64,000 nt of DNA from a bacterium (GTDB lineage Bacteria; UBA8248), in NCBI GenBank assembly GCA_022825065.1, contig JAJDYR010000022.1, positions 97,021-161,020 of the forward strand, given 5' to 3'. Positions 39,813 through 60,189 of the stretch are shown here, one piece after another. A program made the translations under genes and the position numbers. Each line of letters opens with the position of its first letter. Position 1 is the first letter of the stretch. Under the pieces are notes generated by a model. That model was not told where the DNA came from, did not search any database, and saw nothing but the letters and a program-made list of their open reading frames with translations.

Positions 39813-39958
39813 TTTCGACCAGGGAGATCGGGGGTTTGCGCGATAGCGGTCTTCCCGCTAAAGGCAATATCTCCCGACGAGGACTTTTTCACCAACCCCG
39901 GAATGCGCGCGCGGCGCATTTTGATGTAGGATAGGCGTATTCCTTACATGGAGAGAAC

Positions 39959-42478: not shown

Positions 42479-42537
42479 CGGTGAGACCAACCCGCGCGTT
42501 TAGGGGCTGCTGACAGGTCCCTTTTTCGGGGGATAAA

Positions 42538-42640
42538 GGCACCCCCCCTACCCCCCCTTGTCAGGGGGGCAAGAAAAAACAAAACCCCTCAGCCCGGCGG
42601 TGGGCGTTGCCTTTTTATACCCCCGGACAAGGGGTTGTCG
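42538..42640. repeat. Family-A MITE-like element, copy A2 (right TIR degenerate/truncated)
   Basis: 'GGCACCCCCCCTACCCCCCCTTGTCAGGGGGGcaagaaaaaacaaaacccctcagcccggcgg...cctttttataCCCCCGGACAAGGGGTTG'. Confidence 0.7.
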
Positions 42641-42674
42641 AAAAAATCATCCTCGGTCGGAAATGACCACTGCC

Positions 42675-42812
42675 GTCATTCCGGCGAAAGCCGGAATCCA
42701 TTTTATCGCAGAATGACAATACCCTGGCTTTTCATTTCTCTGTCATTGGCGAGAATCAATCAGGAAATAAAAACAAAGGCAAAAAATGGATTCCGGCTTT
42801 CGCCGGAATGAC
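42675..42812. repeat. Family-B TIR element, copy B1. TIRs are GTCATTCCGGCGAAAGCCGGAATCCATT ... AATGGATTCCGGCTTTCGCCGGAATGAC. It translates as 'VIPAKAGIH' in spurious ORFs.
   Basis: Read directly. The internal AT-rich segment is the reverse complement of the B3 internal segment. Confidence 0.8.
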
Positions 42813-42899
42813 GAACAAAACCGCCCTGTCTCGTCGGGGCAGGCGGTATTGGGGGTTACGCGGCAGTCCCTCTTCCTACCCGCACGGATGGCCATAAAA

Positions 42900-43005
42900 C
42901 CTCATCCTGAGTAGGCGCGTAAGCGCCGTATCGAAGGATGGGGGCGTCTCCCGACGCACGAGAGGGCATCCTTCGATACGCGGCTCCGCCGCTACTCAGG
43001 ATGAG
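42900..43005. repeat. Long imperfect hairpin (about 106 nt) downstream of the TPP-enzyme gene. Arms are CCTCATCCTGAGTAG...GCGCCGTATCGAAGGATG and CATCCTTCGATACGCGGC...CTACTCAGGATGAG.
   Basis: Inverted-repeat arms read directly. Single copy in the window. Confidence 0.55.
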
Positions 43006-43049
43006 AGAGATGTGAAGACTTTTTCAACAGCCCCGTTTAAGGCGCAGGC

Positions 43050-44795
43050 TCAAGATTCCGCGTCGGGCGGCGGAGCCGTGGCGGCCCCGCCCCGGAAGGA
43101 TTTCACCGTCCGCGTCCACCGGGAGGAAAGCACGTCCCGGTCAATGGGACAGTCGATGACGTGAACGCCACCCCCCGACTGCGCATCGCGGATGGCGCTC
43201 CCCAACCCCTCCGCCGATTCCACCCGATGGCCATGCGCGCCGAAAGCGCGAGCGAGACTCGGGAAATCGGGGTTGTTGAGCGAGGTGGCGATGTAGCGCT
43301 CATTGAACACGTGCTTTTGCGAGTGCCTGAGCGCGTTGTATTCCCCGTCGTTGAAAATAAGATAGGTGACGGACAAACCGAGCGCCGTCGCCGTGGCGAG
43401 CTCACCGCAGGTCATGGTGAAGCTCCCGTCTCCCACGATCGCGCACACCGGCCGCTCGGGCGCGCCGAGCTTCGCCCCGATAGCCGCGCCTATGGCGTAG
43501 CCCATCGACTGGTAGGCTTCCGAGAGCAGGATGCTCCGGGGGCGGTGAATCGTAAACGCCTGCTCCATGAGCCAGCTCTGGGTGGCGGAGGAATCGGAGA
43601 TGAAAATCGTATCGGGCGAGGTGTTCTCGCGCAGCGTCTTCATCACGAAAAGACCGTGGAAGGGCGGCTCGGCCGGTTGCGCCAAAAACGAGCGCAGCCT
43701 CTCCTCATAGCGCCTTTTCCCCTCGCGCACGCGGACGTGACCTTCGGTAAGCGCAGTATCTTCTGCGTCCGAGATTCTCCTGAGCAGGCCATCGAGCGCG
43801 GGCTTGAGATCACTCACCAAGCCCACCGATGCCGGGTAATTGCGCCCGACCCGCTCGGGGTCGATGTCGATCTGAACGAGATTCTTCGGCATCGGCGCCT
43901 TGAAGTAAAAGGTGGCGAACTGCCCGAAGCCCGTGCCTAAGGCCAGACACGAATCCGCCTCTTCGAGCATCTCCTCACAGCCCAGGAAATGCACGAGGCC
44001 GAAGGAGAGCGGGTCGGCTTCGGAGAGAATCCCCCTCCCCTTCACGGAGGTGACGACGGGCGCGCCGAGCTTCGAAGCCAGAAGCTGCACTTCTCTTTCG
44101 CAGCGGGCGGTCACCACGCCGTTTCCCGCATAGATCACCGGACGTCTGGCCGCCAGGAGCGATTCTGCGATCTCATCGAGCGCGCGCTCATCGACGGGCG
44201 GCGGGGACGGCGGCCCTTCGAATTCGGGCCCTACGATCACCCGCTCCTCTTCGGCTTGGAACAGGTCCGCCTTCATCACCACCTGCACGGGCCCCGGCCT
44301 TCCCGCCTCCGCCCAGCGGAACGCGGCCTCAATAGCGGGCGCGATGCCTGCGACAGAATCGGGCGTGAACGATTTCTTGACGCAGCCGGCGAGCGCCTTT
44401 TCCATATCCACGTCGTGGATGGCGCTCCTGTTCCGCATGTTGTCGGCGAGGGTGGCCGTCACCGCGACGACGGGAACGGCATCCTCATAAGCGGAGCGAA
44501 GCGCGGTGGCGAGGTTCGTGCCGCCCGGCCCCGGCACGGTGAAGACCACGCCCGTCTTCCCGGACACCTTGGCGTAGCCGTCCGCCGCGAAGCCCGCCCC
44601 CTGTTCGTGGCGCGTGACGACCGGCACAGCGCCCGCCCCGTCGATCATCGCGTCGTAGACCGGCAGCGTGAGCGTGCCCGGAATACCAAAGATGTATTCC
44701 ACGCCCCTCGCATGAAGCGCATCGAGCAGGACCTGCGATCCGTTTCGCGCCACCTGAGACTCCTCCGGTTTCCTCATAGAAACAAAGCCCGCCAA
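43050..44795 (-). CDS. Thiamine-pyrophosphate-dependent enzyme (acetolactate-synthase large-subunit-like). Solitary: no ilvN/ilvH small subunit adjacent.
   Basis: 'VLLDALHARGVEYIFGIPGTLTLPVYDAM...', TPP-binding region 'GDGSFTMTCGELATA'. 581 aa. Confidence 0.75.
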   Translation of the reverse strand: MAGFVSMRKPEESQVARNGSQVLLDALHARGVEYIFGIPGTLTLPVYDAMIDGAGAVPVVTRHEQGAGFAADGYAKVSGKTGVVFTVPGPGGTNLATALRSAYEDAVPVVAVTATLADNMRNRSAIHDVDMEKALAGCVKKSFTPDSVAGIAPAIEAAFRWAEAGRPGPVQVVMKADLFQAEEERVIVGPEFEGPPSPPPVDERALDEIAESLLAARRPVIYAGNGVVTARCEREVQLLASKLGAPVVTSVKGRGILSEADPLSFGLVHFLGCEEMLEEADSCLALGTGFGQFATFYFKAPMPKNLVQIDIDPERVGRNYPASVGLVSDLKPALDGLLRRISDAEDTALTEGHVRVREGKRRYEERLRSFLAQPAEPPFHGLFVMKTLRENTSPDTIFISDSSATQSWLMEQAFTIHRPRSILLSEAYQSMGYAIGAAIGAKLGAPERPVCAIVGDGSFTMTCGELATATALGLSVTYLIFNDGEYNALRHSQKHVFNERYIATSLNNPDFPSLARAFGAHGHRVESAEGLGSAIRDAQSGGGVHVIDCPIDRDVLSSRWTRTVKSFRGGAATAPPPDAES

Positions 44796-45124
44796 AGCTA
44801 GGCGGCATCCGCGCGCGTGTCAACTTCCATACCCGTTTGCGCGCGCGGGGCCGATGGACTACCTTCTCGACTGATTCATTCGGGCGCACATGACGGGAGG
44901 CGGCGGTAGAGATTGTCGGGGTTCACAGCGAACAAGCCCGGCAGCGCGGGGTTGTTGAAAAGCCCTCTTGAGGAGGTCGAGTTTCTCCGCCTCGGAAAAC
45001 CCGGCGGCAAAACGAGCAAAAGCGGGATTCACTCCCTCATTGAGGGAGCTGTTGAAAAAGCCCTGACTTCGTGATTCGGCGTATGAAACCGGCCGGGGAG
45101 GGAGGGTTTGACACGATGGAATTG

Positions 45125-45152
45125 TAGGGGCGGTTTGCGAACCGCCCCTACG
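45125..45152. repeat. Family-C REP-like palindrome GTAGGGGCGGTTTGCGAACCGCCCCTAC (copy C1). It abuts the left end of B2.
   Basis: Perfect 28-bp palindrome read directly. Related copies at 54489..54516 and 50769..50792. Confidence 0.75.
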
Positions 45153-45172
45153 GGCGGATGCGGTTTTGATCG

Positions 45173-45307
45173 TCATTCCGGCGAAAGCCGGAATCCATTT
45201 GCGGATGCGGGTGAATGAACGGCGGCGTTTCATTCCCCGCCGATGCGCAAGAACCCTGACGAAAGGCAAAAAGCATAAAATGGATTCCGGCTTTCGCCGG
45301 AATGACG
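45173..45307. repeat. Family-B TIR element, copy B2
   Basis: Same 28-bp TIRs as B1 and B3, with a different internal segment. Confidence 0.8.
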
Positions 45308-45396
45308 GGGTGGCCAATTCCGAGCGAGGAGGGGTTTTTCAACAACCCTCTCAAGGGGGGAGTGATGCCGACTCTCAGCCGGGCGGCGGGCGCAGA

Positions 45397-46158
45397 ATGG
45401 AGAAAGCGATGTTCAGCCAACAGGCGATAGACGCTCTCAAAGACGCGGAATCGGTGGTCGTCCTCACCGGGGCGGGCGTGAGTGCGGAGAGCGGCGTGCC
45501 CACCTTCCGGGGAGCGGGCGGCCTGTGGCGCGAGTACAGCGCCACCTCGCTGGCGACGCCCGAGGCCTTTCGCGCCGACCCGAAGCTCGTCTGGGAGTTT
45601 TACAACTACCGCCGCGAGGTGCTGGAACCCCTGGCGCCCAACCCGGGACACTACGCCATCGCCTCGCTGGAGGAGCGCTTCGAGCGCTTCACCCTCATCA
45701 CGCAGAACATCGACAACTTGCACCGCGTCGCCGGGACGAGGGAGATCGTGGAGCTGCACGGCAACATCTGGCGCGTTCGCTGCACGAACCTGGGCTGTGA
45801 GCGCTACACGCTCGCGTGGGAGAACCGCGACGTGCCGATCGACCCCCTGCCGCCAAAGTGCGAGGCGTGCGAGAGCCTCCTGCGCCCCCACGTGGTGTGG
45901 TTCGGCGAGATGCTCGACCCCGAGCAGTTGCGCCGGGCGCTCGTTGCGGTGGATGATTGCGATTACCTGATCGTGGCGGGCACGTCCGCCGCGGTGCAGC
46001 CGGCCGCCTCCATGCCCATGACGGCCTCGCGGGGCGGCGCGTTCGTGCTCGAGGTGAACCCCGAGCCGACGGACATCAGCCCGTACATGAGCGAGGCGGT
46101 GCAGGAGCCCTCGGGCGTCGCCCTGCCCCGCCTGCTCGAAGCGGCTCTTGGAGGATAG
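45397..46158 (+). CDS. NAD-dependent protein deacylase, Sir2 family (CobB-like). Start at internal ATG 45397. The tracked ORF begins at 45166, inside repeat B2.
   Basis: 'VVVLTGAGVSAESGVPTFRG', 'QNIDNLHRVAG', Zn ribbon 'CTNLGCERY...CEAC'. Confidence 0.8.
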   Translation: MEKAMFSQQAIDALKDAESVVVLTGAGVSAESGVPTFRGAGGLWREYSATSLATPEAFRADPKLVWEFYNYRREVLEPLAPNPGHYAIASLEERFERFTLITQNIDNLHRVAGTREIVELHGNIWRVRCTNLGCERYTLAWENRDVPIDPLPPKCEACESLLRPHVVWFGEMLDPEQLRRALVAVDDCDYLIVAGTSAAVQPAASMPMTASRGGAFVLEVNPEPTDISPYMSEAVQEPSGVALPRLLEAALGG

Positions 46159-46160
46159 TG

Positions 46161-47423
46161 ATGGCGCGGCCCAGACTGACGGCGGTGCGCGGCGTGAAAG
46201 ACGTCCTGCCCGAAGAATCTTCGAGGTGGCAGGGAGCCGAACGACTGGCGCGGGAGATTTTCGCGCGCTACGGCTACGGGGAGATAAGAGTGCCCGTGTT
46301 CGAGCGCACGGAGCTCTTCGCGCGCGGCATCGGCGAGGAGACCGACATCGTCTCCAAGGAGATGTATACCTTCGAAGACAAGGGGGGCGACTCCATCACG
46401 CTGCGCCCCGAGGCGACCGCCTCGATCTGCCGCGCCTACGCCCAACACGGCCTCCACAACCGAGCGAGCGTCTCGAAGCTCTTCTGCATCGGCCCCATGT
46501 TCCGCTACGAGCGCCCCCAGGCGGGCCGCCTGCGGCAGTTCCACCAGATAGACGCGGAAGTGTTCGGAACGGTGGACCCGGCGGTCGACGCCGAACTCAT
46601 CGTGATGCTCATGGAATTTCTCGATAAAATGGGCGTCGAGGGTCTGGCGCTCCAGATCAACAACCTGGGCGATGCGGAATGCCGCCCGGCCTACGCCGCC
46701 GCCCTTCAGGAATATCTCAGAGCAGAAACGAAGCACCTGGGCGCCGAAATCGCCGAACGGGTCGAACGCAACCCGCTTCGCTTTCTGGACAGCAAGAACC
46801 CGGACCACCAGGAGATCATCGCGCGCGCGCCGAGGATAGACGCGTTCTGGAACGAAACGTGCCGGGCGCATCTGGAGAGCGTATGCCGGCTCATCGAGAG
46901 CGCGGGCGTCGCGTATGAGATCAACCCGAGGCTCGTCCGCGGCCTCGACTACTACTGCCTCACCGTCTTCGAGGTGACGAGCGAGAGCCTGGGGGCGCAG
47001 AACGCGGTGTGCGGCGGAGGGCGCTACGACGGCCTCATGGAAGAGCTGGGCGGCCCGCCCACGCCGGGTATCGGCTTCGCGGTCGGCGTGGAGCGTCTCC
47101 TGCAACTGGCGGGAGAAAAGGCCCCGGCCCAGAATGAGGATATCCAAGCCTACATCGTCGCACTCGGCGACGCCGCGCAAGCCCAAGTATTCGAACTCGC
47201 TGCCGAACTGCGCGCAGGGGGGATTCGCACCGAACGCTCCTTCGGCGGAGGCAGCATGAAAAGCCAGATGAAGCGCGCCGACCGCTCGGGTGCGGCGTTC
47301 GTGCTCCTGCTGGGCGACGACGAGGCCGCCAAGGGGGTGGTGAGCGTCCGCCACATGAAAGAGAGTCGACAGACGGAAGTGAAGCGAGAGGAAGCGTTAG
47401 ATTACATAAAAGGCAATTTATGA
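46161..47423 (+). CDS. hisS: Histidine--tRNA ligase. Start at ATG 46161, 2 nt after the Sir2 stop.
   Basis: 'MARPRLTAVRGVKDVLPEES...', 'MFRYERPQAGRLRQFHQIDAEVFG', 'GGGRYDGL'. Confidence 0.9.
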   Translation: MARPRLTAVRGVKDVLPEESSRWQGAERLAREIFARYGYGEIRVPVFERTELFARGIGEETDIVSKEMYTFEDKGGDSITLRPEATASICRAYAQHGLHNRASVSKLFCIGPMFRYERPQAGRLRQFHQIDAEVFGTVDPAVDAELIVMLMEFLDKMGVEGLALQINNLGDAECRPAYAAALQEYLRAETKHLGAEIAERVERNPLRFLDSKNPDHQEIIARAPRIDAFWNETCRAHLESVCRLIESAGVAYEINPRLVRGLDYYCLTVFEVTSESLGAQNAVCGGGRYDGLMEELGGPPTPGIGFAVGVERLLQLAGEKAPAQNEDIQAYIVALGDAAQAQVFELAAELRAGGIRTERSFGGGSMKSQMKRADRSGAAFVLLLGDDEAAKGVVSVRHMKESRQTEVKREEALDYIKGNL

Positions 47424-47464
47424 TTTAACAACAAATATTTGCAAGTTATTATTAAAGTCGATTC

Positions 47465-48397
47465 TTAATTGTTGCAGAGCCATTCATACACGCTGATGAC
47501 CCCCACCTCGCTGAACCCCAGCTCCTGATAGAACGCGCGCACGTCCTGATCTTCGGCGGAGACGATGAGTTCGAGCGCCTCCGCGCCGCACGCCAGCGCC
47601 CTCCGGGCGGACGCCTGAATCAGCAGGCGGCCAAGGCCGCGTCTGCGGTGAGCGGGCATGACGCCGATGTCGGGGATGTAGACGGCTTTATCGCCCGCAG
47701 CCAAACGGCTCGGGTCGACGGCCAGTATCGCCATCCCCGCCCCCTCGGGGCCTCCCGGCTCGCCACCCAGGTATTCGAAGATGAACGAATTTTCCGGGCG
47801 CGTGTCCGGCGCGTCGTACCAGGCGGTGATCGTCTCGGCGGTGTGCGGCGTGAAGTTCCACATGTCCGGGAAAATCCCGTTGAAAAGATCGGCGAGGTAT
47901 CGCGCATCGCCGGGCAGGGCCGCCGCGCGAAGCCGGTAGCCCGCCGGCAGGCGTGGTTCTCCCAACTCCGTGAGCGCGTCATGCTTCAGGAAGCGGAGGT
48001 CGCGCACTTTCCGCCCGCCGCTCAGGTATATGAAACGCCCCGGCAGCGAGACGGGCAGATACGCCCAGATGCCGCCCAGGCCGTTTTCGCGCGCTTCGGC
48101 GAGGGCCGCCTCCAGCAGATGCCGGGCGTAGCCCGCCTTTCTGGCCTCGGGCCGAACGAAAAGGGCGTCGATGCAGGCCCTGTTCCTCGCCCTCGCCTCC
48201 CGGTTCACCACCATGCGGCAATAGCCGGCCGGGGTCTCGCCGCCCTCTCCCGGCCAGGCGAGCCAGACCTTCGTGCCCGGCGCGCCGAAACCGGCATCCA
48301 CCTCCTCGGGCGAAAGCCCGAAAGCCTCCGCCGCCAGGGCGGTCAGCGCATGGTGGTGCTCCGGCCCGATGCGCTCCACCCTAGCCCCGGTGGACAT
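47465..48397 (-). CDS. GNAT-family N-acetyltransferase with two tandem GNAT domains
   Basis: Two acetyl-CoA-binding-like segments: 'VRPEARKAGYARHLLEAALAEARENG' and 'VMPAHRRRGLGRLLIQASARRALACGAEAL'. Confidence 0.6.
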   Translation of the reverse strand: MSTGARVERIGPEHHHALTALAAEAFGLSPEEVDAGFGAPGTKVWLAWPGEGGETPAGYCRMVVNREARARNRACIDALFVRPEARKAGYARHLLEAALAEARENGLGGIWAYLPVSLPGRFIYLSGGRKVRDLRFLKHDALTELGEPRLPAGYRLRAAALPGDARYLADLFNGIFPDMWNFTPHTAETITAWYDAPDTRPENSFIFEYLGGEPGGPEGAGMAILAVDPSRLAAGDKAVYIPDIGVMPAHRRRGLGRLLIQASARRALACGAEALELIVSAEDQDVRAFYQELGFSEVGVISVYEWLCNN

Positions 48398-48773
48398 GGA
48401 TCTTTCCCTCTTCGATCATCTTTTCGAACTTCCGCATCAGCCAGCCCCGCACCACGGCCCGCACGGCGGGGACCATGAGGGCGAAACCGGCGGCGTCCGT
48501 CAGGAGGCCGGGCGTCAGGAGCAGCACGCCGCCCACGAGCACCATCGCGCCCTCGACCATCTCGGCCCCGGGAAGCCTCCCCTCCGCCATTTCCGCCTGG
48601 ATGCGCGATACCACGTAAAACCCCTGGGTTCTCGCCGCCCACGCGCCGAGCGCGCCGGTGAGGATGACGACCCCCAGCGTCGGGGCCAGACCGATGGAGG
48701 TTCCCAGATCGATGAGAATCATCAGTTCGATGATGGGGATGAGCGTGAAGAGCAGGAACAGTTTGAAGATCAA
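48381..48773 (-). CDS. fxsA: FxsA family membrane protein
   Basis: 'MIFKLFLLFTLIPIIELMILIDLGTSIG...GGVLLLTPGLLTDAAGFALMVPAVR'. Confidence 0.7.
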   Translation of the reverse strand: MIFKLFLLFTLIPIIELMILIDLGTSIGLAPTLGVVILTGALGAWAARTQGFYVVSRIQAEMAEGRLPGAEMVEGAMVLVGGVLLLTPGLLTDAAGFALMVPAVRAVVRGWLMRKFEKMIEEGKIHVHRG

Positions 48774-49009
48774 GAGGCCTCTCCTTCGCGGCGCATTTCG
48801 CGGATTTTAGCATGAGTGCAGGCGAGATGGGTATATGGGATTCTCGTGGAGAGTGAGGAGAATAAACCGGACTGGCGTGAGAAATCCCGGCGCGCGAAAC
48901 GCGGGCGGCCTCTTTTCAGGGCGGATGAAAAGCCTTACAGTCCTATGGCGCATTTCATACATCCACTCGATGCGGCCATCGCACCGATGAGACGGAAGGA
49001 GGCTCAGAC

Positions 49010-50071
49010 ATGGCATCCACGATGAAAGCAATGCGGCTTCATGAGTTGGGCGGATCGTTTCAACTCGAAGAAGTTCCGGTGCCCCAGCCGGGTCCGAACG
49101 ACGCGCTGGTGCGGTTAAAGGCCACGGGCGTGGGCCTCACGCTGGTCATCATGCGCAACACGCCCGGCCTGGTGGATGAGTACCCCCGAATCCTGGGGCA
49201 CGAGATCGCGGGCGAGGTCGTCGAAACAGGCTCTCACGTCACGAACGTGGGCGTGGGCGATCACGTGACGTGCCACTTCTACCTCACCTGCCACAACTGC
49301 CGGTACTGCCGCAGCGGGCGCGAGACGCTTTGCGAGAATTTCCGGGGCTACGTCGGCCTCGTCATGGACGGGGGCTACGCCGAATACACGTCCGTCCCCG
49401 CCGTGAACCTGTGCAAGATCCCGGACGGCGTGAGTTCGCTCGACGCCTGCGTGGCGGCGGACGCCATCTGCACGCCCTACCACAACTGCGTTGCCGAGGC
49501 GCAGATAAAGCCCGGCGACGTGGTGGCTATCGTGGGCGCGGGCGGCGGCGTGGCGATTCACGCGGTGCAGATGGCCCAGGTGTGCGGCGGCCACGTGATC
49601 GGAATCGACGTGTCCGAGAAAAAACTCGATATGGTATCCCAGCTCGGGGCCTTCGCCACCCTGAACCCCGCGCAGACCGACACCGTGGAGGAAATCCTCT
49701 CCCTCACCGACGGACGCGGGGTGGACGCCTACATCGACTACGTGGCCTCGCGCGAGACGCTCGAAGCCGGCGTGGCCAGCATCGGGCGCGGGGGCAAGCT
49801 GGTGATCGTGGGCTACCGACCGGCGGCGGCATACAACAACGTATCGCCCAACTTCACCGTCGACCCGCTCCAGCTGCTCACCTACGCGCAGGAGATCCAC
49901 GGCTCGCGCTATTGCTCTATGGAGGAGCTCAAGCAATCGCTTGAACTGATACGGCAGGGGAAGATCAAACCCGTCGTCACCGAGACTTATCCACTCGAGG
50001 AGACCGAAACCGCCTTCCAGGCGCTCTTGGAAAACCGCGTCACCGGACGCGCGGCGGTGGTGTTCGACTAG
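49010..50071 (+). CDS. Zinc-dependent alcohol dehydrogenase (MDR superfamily)
   Basis: 'GHEIAGEVVETGSHV', structural Zn 'CHNCRYCRSGRETLC', Rossmann 'VAIVGAGGGVAIHAVQMAQ'. Confidence 0.8.
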   Translation: MASTMKAMRLHELGGSFQLEEVPVPQPGPNDALVRLKATGVGLTLVIMRNTPGLVDEYPRILGHEIAGEVVETGSHVTNVGVGDHVTCHFYLTCHNCRYCRSGRETLCENFRGYVGLVMDGGYAEYTSVPAVNLCKIPDGVSSLDACVAADAICTPYHNCVAEAQIKPGDVVAIVGAGGGVAIHAVQMAQVCGGHVIGIDVSEKKLDMVSQLGAFATLNPAQTDTVEEILSLTDGRGVDAYIDYVASRETLEAGVASIGRGGKLVIVGYRPAAAYNNVSPNFTVDPLQLLTYAQEIHGSRYCSMEELKQSLELIRQGKIKPVVTETYPLEETETAFQALLENRVTGRAAVVFD

Positions 50072-50122
50072 CTCTCATACGCGGAGACGCATTCGTTTTC
50101 ATATTCCCAAGGAGAAATACCG

Positions 50123-50599
50123 ATGGTGGAATCCGTAGACAAGGAAGTGATGGCCAAACAGGAGCGCCGGGTGCGGGCGACGCGCGCGGAGGGCTGCCGG
50201 GTGGAGCTGAAAGCGCGCAAGCACGCCTTCGTCGCCGATGAACCGGCGCAGGGCGGCGGGACCGACACGGGCCCCACGCCGCGCGAACTGGCGCTCGGCG
50301 CGCTTTCCGCCTGCATCACGGTCATCACGAACAAGGTGGCCGAGGGGCTCGACTTCAACGTCATCGCCCAGGAGGTGGAGGTGCGCGGCACGGCCGACCC
50401 CCGGGGCGCCAAGGACCCGGACAACGGCATCAGCCCGAACTTCGATTACGTGGAGGCGAAAATCCACCTGACCACGGACGAGCCCGAGGAGCGGGTGGCC
50501 GAACTCAAGCGCCAGCACCACGGGCGCTGCCCCATCTCCGCGCTCTACCGCGAGAGCGGCTGCGAACTCGTGGAGGAGTGGATCGTCAAGCGGCCGTGA
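50123..50599 (+). CDS. OsmC/Ohr-family peroxiredoxin-like protein
   Basis: 'GGGTDTGPTPRELALGALSACITV...HGRCPISALY' (the two conserved Cys). Confidence 0.75.
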   Translation: MVESVDKEVMAKQERRVRATRAEGCRVELKARKHAFVADEPAQGGGTDTGPTPRELALGALSACITVITNKVAEGLDFNVIAQEVEVRGTADPRGAKDPDNGISPNFDYVEAKIHLTTDEPEERVAELKRQHHGRCPISALYRESGCELVEEWIVKRP

Positions 50600-50616
50600 G
50601 GGGGGAAGTCCGCGCC

Positions 50617-50666
50617 GAAGGCGTCACCTTTACCCCCCTGACAAGGGGGGGGCCAGGGGGGTTGCC
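50617..50666. repeat. Family-A solo right half (right TIR plus the adjacent internal segment)
   Basis: 'gcgtcacctttACCCCCCTGACAAGGGGGGGGCCAGGGGGGTTGCC'. Confidence 0.6.
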
Positions 50667-50836
50667 TTTCAAGGGCGATGGTTTTCCGTGTACCCGCCCC
50701 TGCGGGTTCGTTTTAATTTGCGTGGTTTTTGTAGAAGCCGTTCGTGAACGGCCCTCCCCAGAAAAAGCGGGCGGTTCTCGAACCGCCCCTACGAAACCCG
50801 CAAACCCTGCCGGTTGCCGATACGCGCGCGGCGTAA

Positions 50837-50902
50837 GGACAACCCCTCGTGGTTGTCCCTTGCAGAAGGGGTCTTCGGACAGGCACGGTGGTCTGTCCCT
50901 AC
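50837..50902. repeat. Paired REP-like palindromes: family E1 (GGACAACCCCTCGTGGTTGTCC, 50837-50858) followed by family D1 (GGACAGGCACGGTGGTCTGTCCCTAC, 50877-50902)
   Basis: Read directly. The same E-then-D order recurs at 56943-57018. Confidence 0.7.
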
Positions 50903-50980
50903 AAACGAGAAAAGTTTTCGTTCGTCATTCCGGCGTCGGAGCCAACCAGTGCGGGGTTGTTGAAAAAGCCTTTACCAAAG

Positions 50981-51098
50981 GAGCACCCCCCCCTACCCCC
51001 CTTGTCAGGGGAGTAAGAAAGAGCAAACCCTCCACCACAGCGGCGAGGGGCGATGCCTTTTTTTACCCCCCTGACAAGGGGGGGTAGGGGGGGTTGCC
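50981..51098. repeat. Family-A MITE-like element, copy A3
   Basis: 'GAGCACCCCCCCCTACCCCCCTTGTCAGGGGAGtaagaaagagcaaaccctcc...gatgcctttttttACCCCCCTGACAAGGGGGGGTAGGGGGGGTTGCC'. Confidence 0.8.
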
Positions 51099-51377
51099 TT
51101 TCCATCCGAAAGGGGCTTCTCCTCTACCCTTGGCAAGGGGTCTTTTTAACAGCCCCGACGAGGGACGTCGCAGATAGAGCCGAAGGTTCGCCACCGACAT
51201 TGTAGGGGCCGCATACATGCGGCCCGGCCTTTCGCCGACAAAACACGGGTCGCATATATGTGTGGGGCGGCCCCGATGAGGGGCCGCCACCTACAGACCA
51301 CTACGAAGGTCGGTGGCCAGAATGGCGGGGCACGGCGAGCCTGGAGGCGGAGCGGGGCGCGAGAGAAACCTACGAGT

Positions 51378-51821
51378 CTACTCCACCTTCGCCTTCACGT
51401 TCTTTGCGAACTCGGAGAATATCTTGTTCGCCTGGTTCTTGATGACGGTGAAGCCCAGCGAGCCGAGCTTCCCGAACACGTCGACGCTCGAGTCGATGCG
51501 CACCTTCGTCTCGTTCTCCGAGACGGCCTCGAGCGTCACCTCGTTCTTCTGCTTGAGGCTCGCCGCGATTTTCGAGTCCTTCCCCTCGCCCACCGTGCGG
51601 ATGTACTCGGGCGCGCGGACTTCCTCGATGTTGATCTGAAGCTGAAAGCTCGCCTTGAGGAAACTGACCTTCTGCTCGACCCGCACGCCGTAGGTCGCGT
51701 CGTCTATTTTCTCCACGTCCTTCACGCCGGGCACGCAGGCGGCGAACTCCTCGACCTGCCAGATGAAGTCCCACACCTTCTCCCGGGGGGCGGCGACGGT
51801 AATCTCCTGGTTGAATTCCAT
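51378..51821 (-). CDS. SRPBCC-fold protein, CoxG family (carbon monoxide dehydrogenase subunit G-like)
   Basis: 'MEFNQEITVAAPREKVWDFIWQVEEFAACVPGVKDVEKIDDATYGVRVEQKVSFLKASFQLQ'. 147 aa. Confidence 0.6.
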   Translation of the reverse strand: MEFNQEITVAAPREKVWDFIWQVEEFAACVPGVKDVEKIDDATYGVRVEQKVSFLKASFQLQINIEEVRAPEYIRTVGEGKDSKIAASLKQKNEVTLEAVSENETKVRIDSSVDVFGKLGSLGFTVIKNQANKIFSEFAKNVKAKVE

Positions 51822-51931
51822 GTTGGGTGTCCTTTTTGCTCGGTGTGACGCGAAATGATAATCAAACGAGGGTATGATTCTAACAAGACGCGGCGTTTTA
51901 CTCCACAGACTCTCATCTTTCAGGAACGCAG

Positions 51932-52612
51932 ATGCCGGCCGAATCCCTCATCCTCTTCGCCAAACCGCCCCTCGCAGGCCGGGTGAAGACGCGCCTCGCC
52001 CAAAGCCTCGGGCGCGAGGGGGCCGCGCGTCTTTACGCGTGTTTCCTGAAAGACGCAGCCGAGACGGCGCGCTCGCTCAGCGATGCGAGGCCAAGCGCCG
52101 GCCTCGTCTGCGAGTGGACGCTGGAGCAAGGCGAATCGCCCGATGAGTTTCCGCTCACCGACTGGCTGCCCGGCGCCTTTCTCCACCGAATGCAGACGGG
52201 CGCCGACCTGGGGATGCGCATGGCGGCGGCCCTGGGCCGATGCCTGGCTTTCGGGAGACGGGCTGTGCTCATCGGCACGGATTTCCCGGATCTGCCGCAC
52301 GAGGTTCTGATAGACGCGTTCGAGAAGCTGGATTGCGGGGATGAGCCTACCGTCGCGCTCGGGCCCGCTGCGGACGGGGGTTACTACCTGATCGGGATGA
52401 ACCGGTTCGTCCCGGAAATTTTCACCGGCATCCCCTGGAGCACGGGCGAGGTGTTCCCGCGCACGATGGAGAAAGCCGCCGCACTCGGCGTCGGGACTGC
52501 CCTCCTTCCCGAGTGGCGCGACGTGGACGAGGCGGATGATCTGGAGGCGCTCAAGGGCCGCCTCTCGCAGGACGCCTCACGCGCCCGGCACACGCGGGAC
52601 TTTCTTGGCTGA
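51932..52612 (+). CDS. DUF2064 / TIGR04282-family protein (predicted glycosyltransferase-like)
   Basis: 'LILFAKPPLAGRVKTRLAQSLG...AVLIGTDFPDLP...GPAADGGYYLIGM'. Confidence 0.6.
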   Translation: MPAESLILFAKPPLAGRVKTRLAQSLGREGAARLYACFLKDAAETARSLSDARPSAGLVCEWTLEQGESPDEFPLTDWLPGAFLHRMQTGADLGMRMAAALGRCLAFGRRAVLIGTDFPDLPHEVLIDAFEKLDCGDEPTVALGPAADGGYYLIGMNRFVPEIFTGIPWSTGEVFPRTMEKAAALGVGTALLPEWRDVDEADDLEALKGRLSQDASRARHTRDFLG

Positions 52613-52691
52613 GCTACATTCTGTATTGCGCTGAATCCTTGGAGGTGAAAGGATTGCACGTCTAAGTCCGCCGAAAGATGAGGAGCACGCA

Positions 52692-53321
52692 TTGCCGAAC
52701 GAAACCGTCGTAGAAGCCACCTATACCTATTGCGTCCACTGAGCCTGGTGTCTCATCGCGACCGGGCGGTTGCGAACACTGAGCGAGCAGGCGGGCGGGC
52801 GCCTCGCCATCCGCTACCGCGCCTTTCTGCTCTCGCCCGAGCCGGACCACCGTCCGGCCCGCAAGGAGGCCATCATGGGCCACTGGGCGATGGCGAAAAG
52901 CCACCCCGGCGGCGAGGCGATCAACCCCGAACTCATGGCGCGCCGCGAATTTCCTTATCCTCATTCCACGCCGGGCGCGGTCGCCATCAAGGCATTCGCC
53001 GCCCAGCTCCCCGAGTGCGAGGGCGAGTATCTCGAAGCCGTGGAGCGAACGCATCTGGTCGAGTGCCTGAGCATCGACGACGCCGGCGTGCTCGTGGCCG
53101 CCGCCGAGCGGCTGGGGGCGGAGCCCGCGATGATGCGCGAGGTCATGGCCGACCCGGATATGGAAAAGCGCGTGTGGGCGGATCACGTCGAGGCCGTGAA
53201 CGCAGGCATCCAGTCCACGCCCACGGTCGATTTTGCCGGCAAATACAGGATCACAGGCGCGCAGCCCATGGCCATATTCGAGCAAACTTATGAGCGCGCC
53301 CTGGCCGATCAGGACACCTAA
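52692..53321 (+). CDS. DsbA/FrnE-like thiol-disulfide oxidoreductase, predicted selenoprotein. In-frame TGA (Sec) at 52740-52742 in a U-A-W-C redox motif. TTG start after GAGGAG. 209 aa including Sec.
   Basis: The frame is open from 52635 through the TGA into the tracked ORF 52770..53321. 'ETVVEATYTYCVH[U]AWCLIATGRLRTLSEQAGGRLAIRYRAFLLSP' aligns to the FrnE 'SDVVCPWCYIGKRRLE...VEVRWRPFELNP', with TGA at the first Cys. The C-terminal 'GIQSTPTVDFAGKYRITGAQPMAIFEQ' matches the DsbA-family 'GVxGVPTFVIxGKYxISGAQP'. Confidence 0.6.
52752..52783 (+). promoter_or_regulatory. Candidate bacterial SECIS stem-loop beginning 10 nt after the in-frame UGA. It has a 4-bp lower stem (CUCA/UGAG), a 7-bp upper stem (CGCGACC/GGUUGCG, including one G-U pair) and a GGGC apical loop about 22-25 nt past the UGA.
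   Basis: Base-pairing worked out by hand from 'ctcatCGCGACCgggcGGTTGCGaacactgag'. Confidence 0.4.
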
Positions 53322-53328
53322 ACCCACT

Positions 53329-54225
53329 ATGCGAGAAGGCGGCCGGGCTGCAAGAATAGTCGCCGCTCTGGCGGCCCTCCTGGTGCTTGCGGGCTGCGCG
53401 AACATCCGCGCCCTCTTCCTGCCCAAAGAAGAGAAGAAACCGGCGCTCGAAACAAAACGGCCACGGATGAAAAAACCCGAAGAGCCGCATTTTTTCCGCG
53501 TCCTGACGCTTCCCACTTACGACATGGCGAAAGAAGCGTATGACAAGACGGCCATCCTCGGGATCCCCTTCCGCAAGGTGGCCCTCGAGTTCAGGGATAA
53601 AGCGACGTCCATCCGCAAGGCCGAGCCCTCGGAGTTCAGCGTCGGCGTCCGGGCCGAGGTGCAGGATTTGAAACTCGGGGGGACGTCGAGAATCATCGAG
53701 TCGGACGAGGGGTTTTCCATCCTCCAGAAAACGACGAGCGCGCATTACGAACGCGCCCTCAAGCTCATGGAGAAGAAAAAAGACGAGGCCGCCCTCGAAC
53801 TCATCCGCCGCGACCTCGAGATCAACCCCGGAAATGTGGACGCCTGGCTCGCCCTGGCGAAGATGATGGACGAGGCGGGTGATCTGGAGGAGACGCTCGC
53901 CGCGTACGGGAAGGCCCGCGAACTCGACCCCGAGAACCCGGTCGTCTCCAACAGGTACGCCAGATACCTGGTCTCCCAGTACCGCTACGAAGAGGCGGAG
54001 AAGGTGCTCAAGGCGGCGGAGGAATTATCACCCGAAGACACGGGCGTGCTCCTGAACCTCGCCTCCCTGCTCGTCTACCTGAACAAGGAGCCGGACTTCG
54101 CCTCGCGCCTCATCGAGCGCGGCTCCAGAATCGACCCCGGCCGCCCGGAATGGTACCGCCTCTCGGGCGTGATTCAGAAACGAAGGGAACTCGGCATCGC
54201 GCCGAAAGCGAAGGGGGTGAATTAG
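53329..54225 (+). CDS. TPR-repeat lipoprotein. Lipobox 'LLVLAGC'. Start at internal ATG 53329, 7 nt after the DsbA-like stop.
   Basis: 'MREGGRAARIVAALAALLVLAGCANI', TPR-like 'NVDAWLALAKMMDEAGDLEETLAAYGKARELDPENPVV'. Confidence 0.5.
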   Translation: MREGGRAARIVAALAALLVLAGCANIRALFLPKEEKKPALETKRPRMKKPEEPHFFRVLTLPTYDMAKEAYDKTAILGIPFRKVALEFRDKATSIRKAEPSEFSVGVRAEVQDLKLGGTSRIIESDEGFSILQKTTSAHYERALKLMEKKKDEAALELIRRDLEINPGNVDAWLALAKMMDEAGDLEETLAAYGKARELDPENPVVSNRYARYLVSQYRYEEAEKVLKAAEELSPEDTGVLLNLASLLVYLNKEPDFASRLIERGSRIDPGRPEWYRLSGVIQKRRELGIAPKAKGVN

Positions 54226-54230
54226 AAACC

Positions 54231-54258
54231 GTAGGGACAGGTCGCGACCTGTCCCTAC
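54231..54258. repeat. Family-D REP-like palindrome GTAGGGACAGGTCGCGACCTGTCCCTAC (copy D2)
   Basis: Perfect palindrome read directly, 6 nt after the lipoprotein stop. Confidence 0.7.
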
Positions 54259-54343
54259 CACTCCTTTGTCTCTTTTTCCTATATTCCTGAAACCCTGCCT
54301 TTCGGCCGCTCTCCCCTTACTGGCCGGGGTTAATAGAATGGTC

Positions 54344-54484
54344 GTCATTCCGGCGAAAGCCGGAATCCATTTGTTTTGCCTTTGTTTTTTATTTCCTGAT
54401 TTCTTCCCGCCAATGACGAGGAAATGAAAAGCCGGCGTATTGTCATTCTGCTTTAGAATGGATTCCGGCTTTCGCCGGAATGAC
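54344..54484. repeat. Family-B TIR element, copy B3 (inverse orientation relative to B1). Immediately followed by the family-C palindrome C2 (54489-54516).
   Basis: TIRs identical to B1. The internal segment is the reverse complement of the B1 internal segment. Confidence 0.8.
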
Positions 54485-54602
54485 GGCTGTAGGGGCGGAT
54501 CGCGAACCGCTCCTACGGGTCGAACCCGACCGGAGAAGAGCCGCCCCAAAAACCCTCCTGGCAGAAGGGGTAAAAACCGCGGCGCGGCCTCTCGCCTGGA
54601 AA

Positions 54603-54719
54603 AGCAACCCCCCCTACCCCCCCTTGACAGGGGGGCAAGAAAGAGCAAAACCCCCTCGGCCCGGCAGGGCGCATCGCCTTTTTTTACCCCCCTGACAAGG
54701 GGGGGTAGGGGGGGTTGCT
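54603..54719. repeat. Family-A MITE-like element, copy A4
   Basis: 'AGCAACCCCCCCTACCCCCCCTTGACAGGGGGGcaagaaagagcaaaaccccctcggcccggcagggcgcatcgcctttttttACCCCCCTGACAAGGGGGGGTAGGGGGGGTTGCT'. Confidence 0.8.
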
Positions 54720-54918
54720 TTTACCTCCTGATGAAAAGGGGGCTTTTTCAAAGGCCCTTCTTCAGCCAGCCGACCCCTCCTTCCTCGTTCGCGTCAAACC
54801 CTCCTTCCACACTCGCGTTCGACCCCTTGGCTCCCCGCGCATGAATGCGTCATAATGCCGCCGTTCTTAAACCGCGCGAACTTACACAGAAGAACACCAA
54901 ATCATAGAGGGTATACGC

Positions 54919-56271: not shown

Positions 56272-56296
56272 GGGGACGCCCCCCTCGGCTTGAAAA

Positions 56297-56478
56297 CCAA
56301 CCCCCCCTACCCCCCCTTAACAGGGGGGCAAAAAAGACCGACTCCCCGGCAAGTGGGGGATATGAAAAAGACGACGCCCGCCGCCGGGCGGAGAGGCTTT
56401 GCTTTTTTCTGCCCGCCGCCGGGCTAGGGGGTTTGCTTTTTCTTGCCCCCCTGACAAGGGGGGGTAGGGGGGGTTGCC
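56297..56478. repeat. Family-A MITE-like element, copy A5 (about 180 bp; internal insertion)
   Basis: Both 33-bp TIRs intact. The internal segment is about 60 bp longer than in A3 and A4. Confidence 0.8.
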
Positions 56479-56942
56479 TTTGTCCCCTCACAAGGATGAC
56501 TTTCTCAACAGCCCCGCATGTATGCCCGACCCCGCAAAAACCGTTCTCTCGTTCCACTCATATGCAAACCGACTCCTGCTTCCTTCGTAATCGACTCCGC
56601 AATTGCCCGCATTTGCGCTTGCCGGAAGCCGGTCGCGACCGGCCTGGCAGCGGCATTCTCCTCTTGTTGGCGTTCCAGCCCCCGATATCCACTCGATATG
56701 CGAACTTCGCGTTTGGGGCGGACACACAGGTCCGCCCCTACAAAAGCGCAAACCCTCATTCATCAGCACTTTATCAACAGCCCCTCAAGGAGGGAGTTGA
56801 CTTCAAAAACGTGCGCTCCACCAAAATCGCTCCACGAGACTTGTTCAACACCCCCGAGGAGGGAATGTTCGCCGGAATGACGAACAAAACCGCACCGCCT
56901 CGCAAGGGGCTGTTGAAAAACCTTCGTGATGGTTTTGCAGCA

Positions 56943-57018
56943 GGACAACCCCTCTCCGGGGTTGTCCCGCCCTCCGTGGTTGTCCTTCGTCAGGACAGGC
57001 ACGGAGGCCTGTCCCTAC
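56943..57018. repeat. Paired REP-like palindromes: E2 (GGACAACCCCTCTCCGGGGTTGTCC with an extra GGTTGTCC) followed by D3 (GGACAGGCACGGAGGCCTGTCCCTAC)
   Basis: Read directly. Same E-then-D arrangement as at 50837-50902. Confidence 0.7.
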
Positions 57019-57212
57019 GGTGAACAATTCGATGATCGGGGTTCCCTCCTCAGGGAAACTCTTTCAACAAGCCCATCCGAGGGCGACTCATCGGGGCGCC
57101 CCCCCAACGGAACGTGTCGTAAAGTGCTTTTTGTGTTGTTATGCTATAAAGAATTCGAAGAGCAATGCCCGTAGCCGGTTCATTATATGATCGCCGGATT
57201 TGAGGAACAGCA

Positions 57213-60161: not shown

Positions 60162-60189
60162 ATCGGTCGCGTGGAACGGAGGTAAAACG

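What the first reader, a model, noticed from the sequence alone, without database searches (positions are those of the whole stretch)
42675..54484. Family B: roughly 138-bp TIR element (GTCATTCCGGCGAAAGCCGGAATCCATT) in three full copies with two alternative internal segments, plus TIR fragments
B1 (42675-42812) and B3 (54344-54484) carry the same AT-rich internal segment in opposite orientation. B2 (45173-45307) has the same TIRs but a different GC-richer core. This indicates modular exchange of cores between conserved ends. TIR fragments remain at about 50918-50935 and 56868-56889; the latter keeps the B1 right-flank 'GAACAAAACCGC'. The TIR itself is a small hairpin (ATTCCGG-N6-CCGGAAT), recalling the Neisseria dRS3/Correia logic. 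B2 supplies the false N-terminal extension 'MIVIPAKAGIHL' of the tracked Sir2 ORF (45166).
Basis: seen in the sequence. Interest (0 to 1): 0.55.

Follow-up and report, generated by a model that had tools for sequence, protein, structure and literature searches.

The report
Ssn-nuclease hairpin repeat pairs (NTS/SRM)
The three ~140-bp "TIR elements" are real. Their ends are the hairpin motif (NTS/SRM, an extended Neisseria dRS3) that the Ssn family of single-stranded-DNA nucleases recognises, so this is a new lineage for a repeat system described in 2025, not a new kind of element.

Summary
The 28-mer occurs six times without a mismatch, as three facing inverted pairs: 42674-42813, 45171-45307 and 54343-54485. 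Two half-arm remnants also exist.

The arms are not ordinary transposon TIRs. CGTCATTCCGGCGAAAGCCGGAATCCAT matches the published Ssn-related motif (SRM) exactly. It differs from the Neisseria NTS/dRS3 sequence by a compensatory G:C-to-C:G swap in the stem and one 3' base.

I found independently that small GIY-YIG genes sit between facing copies of this hairpin: 51 of 80 metagenome loci had it on both sides. I then found this published by Chenal et al. 2025 (SsnA, a site-specific ssDNA nuclease).

The window elements are the same ends around non-coding cores, the layout of Neisseria intergenic mosaic element (NIME) units.

- **Turnover:** close relatives (sponge-associated Nitrospinota) carry different cores at the orthologous spacer, and more distant relatives carry none.
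- **Constraint:** arms stay identical while cores diverge 13-24%.
- **Gaps:** there is no target-site duplication, and no ssn gene in the sequence available.

Verdict: new member of a known kind, of moderate interest.

The parts
42674..42813 (.). B1: facing SRM doublet (arms 42674-42701 on + and 42786-42813 on -) around an 84-nt AT-rich core (GC 0.36). It lies between the convergent ComEC and TPP-enzyme genes.
   Evidence: (SRM regex); gene context
45171..45307 (.). B2: facing SRM doublet (arms 45171-45198 on + and 45280-45307 on -) around an 81-nt core of a second type (GC 0.54). It lies between the divergent TPP-enzyme and Sir2 genes.
54343..54485 (.). B3: facing SRM doublet (arms 54343-54370 on + and 54458-54485 on -) around an 87-nt B1-type core in the opposite orientation. 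It lies between the TPR gene and the amidohydrolase/dihydroorotase-like gene.
50923..50935 (+). Half-arm remnant CGTCATTCCGGCG, broken in the hairpin loop. It is preceded by a GTTTTCGTT flank (X-type). An orthologous copy is present in relative L321 at 6546-6557.
   Evidence: (family D13)
56868..56893 (-). Half-arm remnant TTCGCCGGAATGACG (56868-56882), also broken in the loop, followed by the flank AACAAAACCGC shared with B1.
   Evidence: (family D7)
42648..42670 (+). Y-type flank next to B1 (CATCCTCGGTCGGAAATGACCAC). A flank of the same type adjoins doublets in L003, L084 and L098.
42813..42824 (+). X-type flank GAACAAAACCGC next to B1. It recurs next to B2 (45160-45171, - strand), at the 56868 remnant, and next to doublets in L003, L040 and L098.
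45045..45352 (.). Larger composite that contains B2. In order: outer inverted repeat GCTGTTGAAAAAGCCC, a GTAG-type hairpin (45125-45156), the X flank, B2, the Y flank, then GGGGTTTTTCAACAACCC. It is 81% identical over 320 bp to a non-syntenic copy in a Nitrospinota MAG (L084).
   Evidence: (D9, D10, D14)
45409..46158 (+). Sir2/CobB-like gene with its probable true start (MFSQQ, 249 aa). The stretch 45166-45408 of the long ORF is a read-through of B2 and its flank.

Best explanation
B1, B2 and B3 are facing doublets of an Ssn-related motif (SRM). This is the directional 28-nt hairpin sequence called NTS in Neisseria, where it contains dRS3. Here the doublets enclose non-coding cores, which is the layout of a Neisseria intergenic mosaic element (NIME) unit.

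**What is established for the family (PMC11893778, experiments on Neisseria and Wolbachia proteins)**
- A 94-aa GIY-YIG protein, Ssn, binds the hairpin only in single-stranded DNA and only on the forward strand.
- It cuts a few nucleotides upstream of the motif.
- It thereby lowers integration of incoming transforming DNA that carries the motif.
- The ssn gene itself typically lies between two facing copies of the motif.

**What is shown here**
- The window arms fit the SRM pattern exactly.
- They have the same inward-facing polarity as the arms that bracket ssn genes.
- They are kept identical while the cores diverge.
- Doublets appear, disappear and change core at orthologous sites among close relatives.

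**What is inferred**
- A cognate ssn gene lies elsewhere in this genome, which appears to be a sponge-associated Nitrospinota bacterium, and acts on these hairpins whenever the DNA is single-stranded.
- The doublets are non-autonomous relatives of SRM-ssn-SRM units.
- They spread or are swapped by recombination at the identical arms, not by cut-and-paste transposition.
- Some arms followed by a T-run (B1 both arms, B3 left arm) may also act as transcription terminators. That would be a by-product.
For: **Sequence identity with the known motif**
- All six arms match the published SRM pattern HGTCWYN(0-2)YYVSBRHN(0-5)WNVSBRGN(0-2)RNCYNB. Simulated sequence gives 0.47 matches per window.
- The arms are 3 mismatches from the NTS consensus, and two of these are a compensatory pair.
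- A printed N. gonorrhoeae unit has the same layout.

**Stem covariation**
- In 147 viral-contig matches to GTCATTCCNGCGAAAGCNGGAATC, the two free positions are Watson-Crick partners in 143.

**Link to the nuclease, found independently and then confirmed in the literature**
- GIY-YIG genes (PF01541) lie exactly between facing hairpins in L100, L153, L127 and L048.
- Of 80 metagenome loci encoding relatives, 51 have hairpins within 150 nt on both sides, 20 on one side and 9 on neither.
- The paper reports the same association and the biochemistry.

**Polarity**
- 52 of 117 hairpins in many phyla have an inward-facing partner within 220 nt. Only 5 have an outward-facing one.

**Constraint on the arms**
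- Arms show 0 differences in 112 positions and cores about 24 in 170 (approximate counts derived from the identities); Fisher p = 3e-6.

**Turnover**
- At the same spacer the window, L321, L326, L327 and L325 carry doublets with different cores, and L324 carries none.
- L322 and L323 have no SRM in 21 kb.
- The ComEC/TPP spacer is 13 nt in L322 and 572 nt in the window.

**Wider pattern**
- This fits the paper's note that SRM-rich genomes are enriched in symbionts.
Against: - No ssn homolog is present in the window or in about 95 kb of related loci, even at hmmsearch E <= 10. A profile search could not place one in this lineage. The cognate nuclease is therefore assumed.
- The arms fail the strict NTS criterion (at most 1 mismatch) and the literal dRS3 pattern ATTCCCN8GGGAAT.
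- In Neisseria, changing the palindrome while keeping the hairpin abolished SsnA activity. A lineage-specific enzyme is therefore needed.
- Ssn is only known to cut. No transposition or copying activity has been shown. In a facing doublet each strand carries only one cleavable arm, so a simple excision model does not follow.
- B1 and B2 sit in fixed flanks, so the repeated unit may be larger than the doublet.
- Natural competence of this organism is unknown. Only a ComEC gene is seen.
Confidence: 0.75

Rival explanations
1. A classical MITE: a deletion derivative of a DDE-type insertion sequence, moved in trans by that transposase through its terminal inverted repeats.
For: The elements are small, have perfect 29-31-bp inverted ends, and are multicopy and intergenic. 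They sit at different loci in close relatives.
Against: - 128 doublets show no target-site duplication above the shuffled control.
- No protein family recurs within 2.5 kb of the hairpin in 119 loci.
- The ends are themselves hairpins that match the SRM.
- Across phyla the partner arm often carries a covarying stem variant, which suggests selection on hairpin structure, not on a fixed terminal sequence.
- The only gene found repeatedly between such ends is the GIY-YIG nuclease.
Confidence: 0.04
2. REP/REPIN-type elements: hairpin doublets copied as a unit by a RAYT (an IS200/IS605-like Y1 transposase).
For: The layout is a hairpin doublet with no target duplication and an intergenic, mosaic-like setting. 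GTAG-type hairpins that look like true REPs sit next to B2 and B3.
Against: - The arms begin CGTCA, not the GTAG-type head.
- They match the SRM exactly.
- No Y1 transposase recurs near them.
- The protein experimentally tied to this motif is Ssn.
- The paper itself treats RAYT/REP as an analogy only.
Confidence: 0.04
3. The elements act mainly at the RNA level, as a small RNA gene or as transcription terminators or stabilisers, and the repeats are kept for that function.
For: - B3 gives a sub-threshold match to Rfam WsnRNA46: 38.7 bits, E 5e-5 for the 17.7-kb scan, against a gathering score of 65.3.
- Arms followed by a T-run are flagged as terminator-like. B1's two arms face the 3' ends of two convergent genes, and B3's left arm follows the TPR gene.
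- The arm forms a stable stem with a GNRA-type loop.
Against: - The Rfam match rests on the arms only and is below threshold.
- Cores are not conserved and are swapped between close relatives.
- B2 lies between divergent genes, where a terminator has no role.
- More distant syntenic relatives lack the elements.
- SsnA does not bind the RNA form.
Confidence: 0.08
4. The hairpins serve mainly as attachment sites for an IS110-like or phage recombinase, as dRS3 does for Neisseria filamentous prophages.
For: dRS3 is a documented integration target of Nf phages. The motif is common in IMG/VR contigs.
Against: - No recombinase or prophage genes recur next to the hairpins.
- BLAST of B1 against phage and plasmid collections found nothing.
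- Nothing is inserted in any of the six window arms.
- This use would be secondary to the Ssn link and is compatible with it.
Confidence: 0.05

Closest known systems
NTS/SRM hairpin repeats of the Ssn GIY-YIG ssDNA nucleases (Chenal et al., Nat Commun 2025, PMC11893778)
   Same: - The arm matches the SRM search pattern exactly and shares CGTCATTCC...GGAATC with the NTS.
- It is a directional hairpin with the conserved upstream CGTCA and the C after the palindrome.
- It is intergenic, multicopy, and arranged as facing pairs like those around ssn genes.
- The host appears to be a symbiont.
   Different: - The stem carries a G:C in place of the C:G of Neisseria, and the 3' end reads CCAT, not CYRG.
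- No ssn gene was seen in the available sequence.
- The host lineage is Nitrospinota-like.
- The doublets enclose non-coding cores of about 80-90 nt and sit in fixed flanks.
Neisseria intergenic mosaic elements (NIME: dRS3 - RS - dRS3; Parkhill 2000, Bentley 2007, PMC1797815)
   Same: - Inverted hairpin repeats flank many alternative core families of 50-150 bp.
- The GC-rich arms of B1 and B3 flank AT-rich cores; the B2 core (GC 0.54) is about as GC-rich as the arms.
- The elements lie among other repeat families.
- Syntenic sites differ between strains.
   Different: - The literal dRS3 pattern ATTCCCN8GGGAAT is not met (ATTCCGN8CGGAAT).
- The window has single units, not long arrays.
- The host is not Neisseria. 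Bentley et al. stated that NIME arrays had not been seen outside the genus.
REP / REPIN / BIME with RAYT transposases
   Same: Hairpin doublets, no target duplication, a mosaic with other repeats, and a presumed domesticated single-copy enzyme acting on single-stranded hairpins.
   Different: The motif head, the enzyme family (Y1 HUH against GIY-YIG) and the sequences all differ.
Correia elements and other MITEs
   Same: Size, inverted ends, intergenic location, and possible effects on transcription.
   Different: No TA or other target duplication, no related DDE transposase, and each end is an independent hairpin.
Rfam RF02625 WsnRNA46 (Wolbachia sRNA 46)
   Same: Its consensus ends read GUCAUCC-hairpin-GGGAUCCAG ... 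CUGGAUUCC-hairpin-GGAUGAC, the same frame as an SRM doublet. Wolbachia SRMs are documented.
   Different: The match reaches only 38.7 bits against a gathering score of 65.3. The loop and core sequences are unrelated.

Membership tests
SRM (Ssn-related motif) repeats | Match to the published degenerate pattern HGTCWYN(0-2)YYVSBRHN(0-5)WNVSBRGN(0-2)RNCYNB | tested here: met
   All six arms match. One further hit at 13358 is probably chance, since 0.47 are expected per simulated window (pattern).
SRM (Ssn-related motif) repeats | Hairpin-forming palindrome with conserved, oriented, non-palindromic flanks (upstream CGTCA, C after the stem) | tested here: met
   The DNA fold is an 8-bp stem with a GAAA loop, -9 kcal/mol, z -4.7. 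Stem covariation holds in 143 of 147 matches. Across 128 doublets, C at -1 is 82% and Y at -2 is 90%.
SRM (Ssn-related motif) repeats | A cognate ssn (cd10448 GIY-YIG, about 94 aa) in the same genome, typically flanked by the motif | not testable with these tools
   There is no homolog in the window or in related loci. The whole genome could not be scanned, and the profile search was uninformative. The association itself was reproduced in other taxa.
SRM (Ssn-related motif) repeats | Strand-specific binding and cleavage by Ssn on single-stranded DNA | not testable with these tools
   This is biochemical and is shown only for Neisseria and Wolbachia proteins.
NTS (Neisseria Transformation Sequence) | CGTCATTCCCGCGMAVGCGGGAATCYRG with at most one mismatch | tested here: not met
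   There are 0 hits at <=1 mismatch. All six arms match at 3 mismatches, two of which are compensatory.
NIME (dRS3-RS-dRS3) | 20-bp inverted repeat ATTCCCN8GGGAAT | tested here: not met
   The arms read ATTCCGGCGAAAGCCGGAAT, with one base changed in each half, and the changes are complementary.
NIME (dRS3-RS-dRS3) | Inverted hairpin repeats flanking alternative 50-150-bp cores of many families, variable at syntenic sites | tested here: met
   Three core types share identical arms. Different cores occupy the orthologous spacer in relatives.
MITE (DDE-transposon derivative) | Target-site duplication flanking the inverted ends | tested here: not met
   The distribution over 128 doublets equals the shuffled control. 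None is visible at B1-B3.
MITE (DDE-transposon derivative) | An autonomous partner encoding a transposase with the same ends | tested here: not met
   No family recurs near 119 loci. The only gene repeatedly found between such ends is a GIY-YIG nuclease.
REP/REPIN | GTAG-type head followed by an imperfect palindrome; associated RAYT | tested here: not met
   The arms start CGTCA and no Y1 transposase was found. True GTAG-type hairpins are a separate family in the window (D10).
Rfam RF02625 WsnRNA46 | Score at or above the gathering threshold (65.3 bits) | tested here: not met
   38.7 bits for B3. B1 and B2 were not reported for this family.
Integron attC / cassette array | IntI integrase and cassettes bounded by attC with R''/R' core sites | tested here: not met
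   No integron integrase appeared among the 20 ORFs scanned between about 35.4 and 60.2 kb; the rest of the window was not scanned. The neighbouring genes are syntenic housekeeping genes.

The most novel reading that the evidence does not exclude
SRM doublets may be the non-autonomous form of a GIY-YIG-driven mobile or exchange system. In this reading, identical hairpin arms act as recombination points where cores, and whole flanked segments, are swapped in from incoming single-stranded DNA after Ssn cutting. That would explain why the same spacer holds different cores in close relatives, and why the exact 25-mer is shared by symbionts of many phyla. It would be a cassette-exchange mechanism without an integrase or a transposase.
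Probability: 0.2. Interest if true: 0.7.

Novelty: new member of a known kind. Interest (0 to 1): 0.35.

Why it matters
The Ssn/NTS system was described only in 2025. Its role outside Neisseria is open, and the origin and spread of the repeats are unexplained.

This window adds three things:
- It extends the system to a sponge-associated Nitrospinota lineage.
- It shows NIME-style units (identical arms, interchangeable cores) outside Neisseria.
- Through syntenic relatives, it gives natural examples of gain, loss and core replacement at one site. That is the kind of material needed to work out how these repeats move.

Practically, it flags spurious ORF extensions in such genomes, such as VIPAKAGI and DSGFRRND peptides. 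It also suggests that the Rfam family WsnRNA46 is modelled on an SRM doublet.

Tried and rejected
- **Integron cassette array.** The dense repeats between 39.6 and 57 kb suggested one. I rejected it because the genes are syntenic housekeeping genes and no integrase appeared among the ORFs scanned.
- **Transposase or recombinase linked to the hairpin.** Clustering ORFs within 2.5 kb of the hairpin in 119 loci gave no recurrent family.
- **Phage or plasmid origin.** Sensitive blastn (the 'distant' mode) of B1 against the phage and plasmid collections found nothing.
- **Known RNA family.** There were no Rfam hits at gathering thresholds. The only sub-threshold hit of note was WsnRNA46, which matches through the arms.
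- **CRISPR repeat.** Considered from the 28-nt hairpin layout and rejected because the copies are inverted pairs, not direct arrays.
- **Target-site duplication.** Absent.
- **'Empty' composite.** I looked for the X and Y flanks joined without a doublet. None occurs in the window or in L003, L040, L084 or L098.
- **Locating an ssn gene in this lineage.** hmmsearch of the window and relatives found none. A profile search of 5.8 billion proteins saturated: 7989 of the 8000 scored candidates passed, and the top 120, where a source names them, are deltaproteobacterial orders (Syntrophales, Desulfobacteraceae, Syntrophobacterales). It was uninformative.
- **Exact-protein look-up of the window amidohydrolase.** It returned only a 1.6-kb Logan contig.
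- **Priority.** My own finding that GIY-YIG genes sit between the hairpins turned out to be already published (onward).

Full report
**1. The observation**

The 28-mer GTCATTCCGGCGAAAGCCGGAATCCATT occurs six times in the window. Every copy is exact, no further copy appears at up to three mismatches, and none is expected by chance. The copies form three facing inverted pairs. With the extra conserved C/G on each side these span 42674-42813 (B1), 45171-45307 (B2) and 54343-54485 (B3).

B1 and the reverse complement of B3 share an AT-rich core at 85% identity. The B2 core is unrelated and GC-richer.

Two truncated arms exist, at 50923-50935 and 56868-56882. Both are broken in the hairpin loop, and the second keeps the B1 flank AACAAAACCGC.

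The arm folds as single-stranded DNA into an 8-bp stem with a GAAA loop (-9 kcal/mol, z -4.7). The long ORF from 45166 does start by reading through the B2 arm as LIVIPAKAGIHL.

**2. Setting**

The genes around the elements are ordinary chromosomal genes: ComEC, a TPP enzyme, Sir2, HisRS, GNAT, ADH, OsmC, DUF2064, a TPR protein, a dihydroorotase-like amidohydrolase and MgtE. The same gene order is kept in relatives. This is therefore not an integron or an island.

The spacers between 39.6 and 57 kb are packed with several other repeat families. All three elements are intergenic:
- B1 lies between convergent genes.
- B2 lies between divergent genes.
- B3 lies between tandem genes.

The amidohydrolase clusters at 90% identity or more with proteins that sources name Nitrospinae or Nitrospinota MAGs, and with one from a Geodia barretti sponge assembly. 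I infer that the host is a sponge-associated Nitrospinota-like bacterium.

**3. What the arms are**

They come from very different phyla, including Chloroflexota, Desulfobacterota, Alpha-, Beta- and Gammaproteobacteria, Binatia and Bacteroidota.

The same architecture recurs everywhere: GTCAYYCC-stem-loop-GGRRTCCAG, a variable core, then the inverted partner. The partner often carries a covarying stem variant. In 147 viral-contig matches to a pattern with one free base pair, the two free bases were Watson-Crick partners 143 times.

Many of those contigs are Neisseria repeat arrays. A N. gonorrhoeae sequence printed in PMC7593972 shows the same unit: CGTCATTCCCGCGAAAGCGGGAATCTAG, a core, then CTGGATTCCCACTTTCGTGGGAATGACG. 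The window arm differs from it by a compensatory G:C to C:G swap.

**4. The protein link**

Clustering all ORFs near the hairpins found no recurrent transposase. A small GIY-YIG gene, however, lay exactly between facing hairpins in four loci from different taxa.

I then ran the reverse test. Of 80 metagenome loci encoding relatives of that protein:
- 51 had such hairpins within 150 nt on both sides.
- 20 had them on one side.
- 9 had none.

Typically the forward copy lies 13-46 nt before the start codon and the reverse copy 9-30 nt after the stop.

A literature search then showed this is published: Chenal et al. 2025 (PMC11893778). They define three things:
- The 28-nt NTS (CGTCATTCCCGCGMAVGCGGGAATCYRG), which contains dRS3.
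- A degenerate Ssn-related motif (SRM).
- The Ssn family of GIY-YIG proteins (cd10448).

SsnA binds the hairpin only as single-stranded DNA and only on the forward strand. It cuts a few nucleotides upstream and reduces transformation by NTS-bearing DNA. The authors note that the NTS-ssnA-NTS layout looks like an insertion sequence and compare it with RAYT/REP.

All six window arms match the SRM pattern exactly. They fail the strict NTS and dRS3 patterns.

**5. What the doublets do in this lineage**

*Polarity.* Across phyla the facing orientation dominates: 52 of 117 hairpins have an inward partner and 5 have an outward one. This is the same polarity as around ssn genes.

*No target duplication.* In 128 doublets there is no target-site duplication. 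Only YC before GTCA is conserved outside the arm.

*Arm constraint.* Nine complete doublets from eight loci of this lineage, including the window, have identical 28-nt arms. I collected only doublets with both arms exact, so this set is ascertained on arm identity. They fall into three core types that are 76-87% identical within a type. In comparisons that did not require exact arms (B1 against B3; B2 against the L321 copy), arms show 0 differences in 112 positions and cores about 24 in 170, counts I derived from the identities (p = 3e-6). The arms are therefore constrained or homogenised.

*Turnover at one site.* The TPR/amidohydrolase spacer differs among relatives:

| Locus | Content of the spacer |
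|---|---|
| window | B1-type core (B3) |
| L321 | B2-type composite, 92% identical to B2 |
| L326 | a third core |
| L327, L325 | short-core doublets with a truncated (L327) or variant-stem (L325) left arm |
| L324 | no SRM doublet |

L321 is 95% identical to the window in the amidohydrolase protein. L324 to L327 belong to the same 90% identity cluster.

*Other sites.* L321 has a 61-nt tandem repeat where the window has B2. The more distant syntenic relatives L322 and L323 have no SRM in 21 kb, and the ComEC/TPP spacer is 13 nt in L322 against 572 nt in the window.

The elements are thus recent, dynamic additions, and cores really are exchanged between conserved ends.

**6. Qualifications**

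- B1 and B2 sit in fixed flanks: GAACAAAACCGC on one side and GGCNGTGGCCAATTCCGAGCGAGG on the other. These flanks recur with both core types in other genomes and never occur without a doublet in the sequence I hold.
- B2 is nested in a composite of about 310 bp with its own outer inverted repeat. The composite is 81% identical to a non-syntenic copy in a Nitrospinota MAG. B3 lacks these flanks, which shows that the doublet is the minimal unit.
- The B1-type core contains what look like decayed arms (CAGAATGAC and CGTCATTGGCG-GAATCAAT). This is seen in the sequence and was not tested.
- No ssn gene is present in the window or in about 95 kb of related loci. I could not scan the whole genome, and a profile search saturated.
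- Arm-plus-T-run sites are terminator-like at B1 (both directions), at B2 (minus-strand arm) and at B3 (left arm). Those of B1 and B3 face the 3' ends of genes. This is a plausible side effect but not a general explanation.
- The conserved promoter-like site of the amidohydrolase lies outside B3.

**7. Verdict**

The finding is real and is correctly described as inverted-repeat modules with exchangeable cores. The classical MITE/Correia reading is not supported.

The elements are SRM (NTS-like) hairpin doublets of the recently described Ssn system, arranged like NIME units, in a lineage where they had not been noted. They are a new member of a known kind.

Two points remain open and of some interest: how such doublets spread, and why cores change at a fixed site.

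Noticed in passing
window 39680-39822, 42522-42603, 50629-50671, 50966-51108, 54588-54729, 56281-56488: A second abundant repeat family, ACCCCCCCTACCCCCCCTTGWCAGGGGGG, usually occurs as facing inverted pairs 8-80 nt apart and forms long hairpins. It is also present in related genomes (L098 6447-6535).
   Followed up: partly
window 45125-45156, 50766-50797, 54488-54520; variant at 54231-54258, 50877-50902, 56993-57018: GTAG-headed palindromes such as TGTAGGGGCGGTTTGCGAACCGCCCCTACGGG, and a covarying variant GTAGGGACAGGTCGCGACCTGTCCCTAC. They look like true REP sequences and often sit directly beside the SRM doublets.
   Followed up: partly
window 43014-43035, 44950-44966, 45050-45066, 45335-45352, 50955-50971, 56495-56516, 56764-56785, 56835-56856, 56905-56920: The motif GGGGYTGTTGAAAAAGCC and its complement recur as outer inverted repeats around composite repeat blocks, including the block that holds B2.
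   Followed up: partly
window 56276-61694: A segment of about 5.4 kb (MscS-like, MgtE-domain and MgtE genes) is absent at this position in the syntenic relatives L321, L322 and L323. It is bounded by repeat blocks, and the right boundary (61694-61749) matches repeats in L040 and L098.
   Followed up: no
window 54331-54499 (- strand): B3 gives a sub-threshold match (38.7 bits) to Rfam RF02625 WsnRNA46. That model's consensus has the GTCAYCC-hairpin-GGRATCCAG frame at both ends, so the Wolbachia 'sRNA 46' family appears to be modelled on an SRM doublet.
   Followed up: partly
L321 60-350: A close relative has about five tandem copies of a 61-nt unit directly upstream of Sir2, where the window has the B2 composite.
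   Followed up: no
L324 7808-9672; L325 8315-9241; L327 6890-8743; L326 1183-2975: The spacer upstream of the amidohydrolase is a hotspot for variable genes in close relatives: an HTH/Peptidase_M78 pair in L324, M48 peptidase fragments in L325, and unknown ORFs in L327. L326 also carries an IS1595-type transposase elsewhere in the syntenic block.
   Followed up: no
L007, L011, L019, L023, L080, L101, L110 (Deltaproteobacteria loci): In deltaproteobacterial genomes the SRM doublet is itself nested in another inverted repeat, CTCGTAAAAAGTCG ... CGACTTTTTACGAG, followed by CATCA. This parallels the nesting of B2 in the GTTGAAAAAG repeat.
   Followed up: no
window 13358-13387: One extra match to the degenerate SRM pattern (CGTCTCTCCGCGATGAACGGCAGCGTCTGG) in a gene-dense region. 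It is probably chance, since 0.47 are expected per window.
   Followed up: no
window 42702-42785 and homologous cores in L003, L040, L098: The B1-type core contains CAGAATGAC and, 24 nt later, CGTCATTG-N5-GAATCAAT. These look like decayed back-to-back SRM arms, suggesting the core arose from two adjacent doublets.
   Followed up: partly
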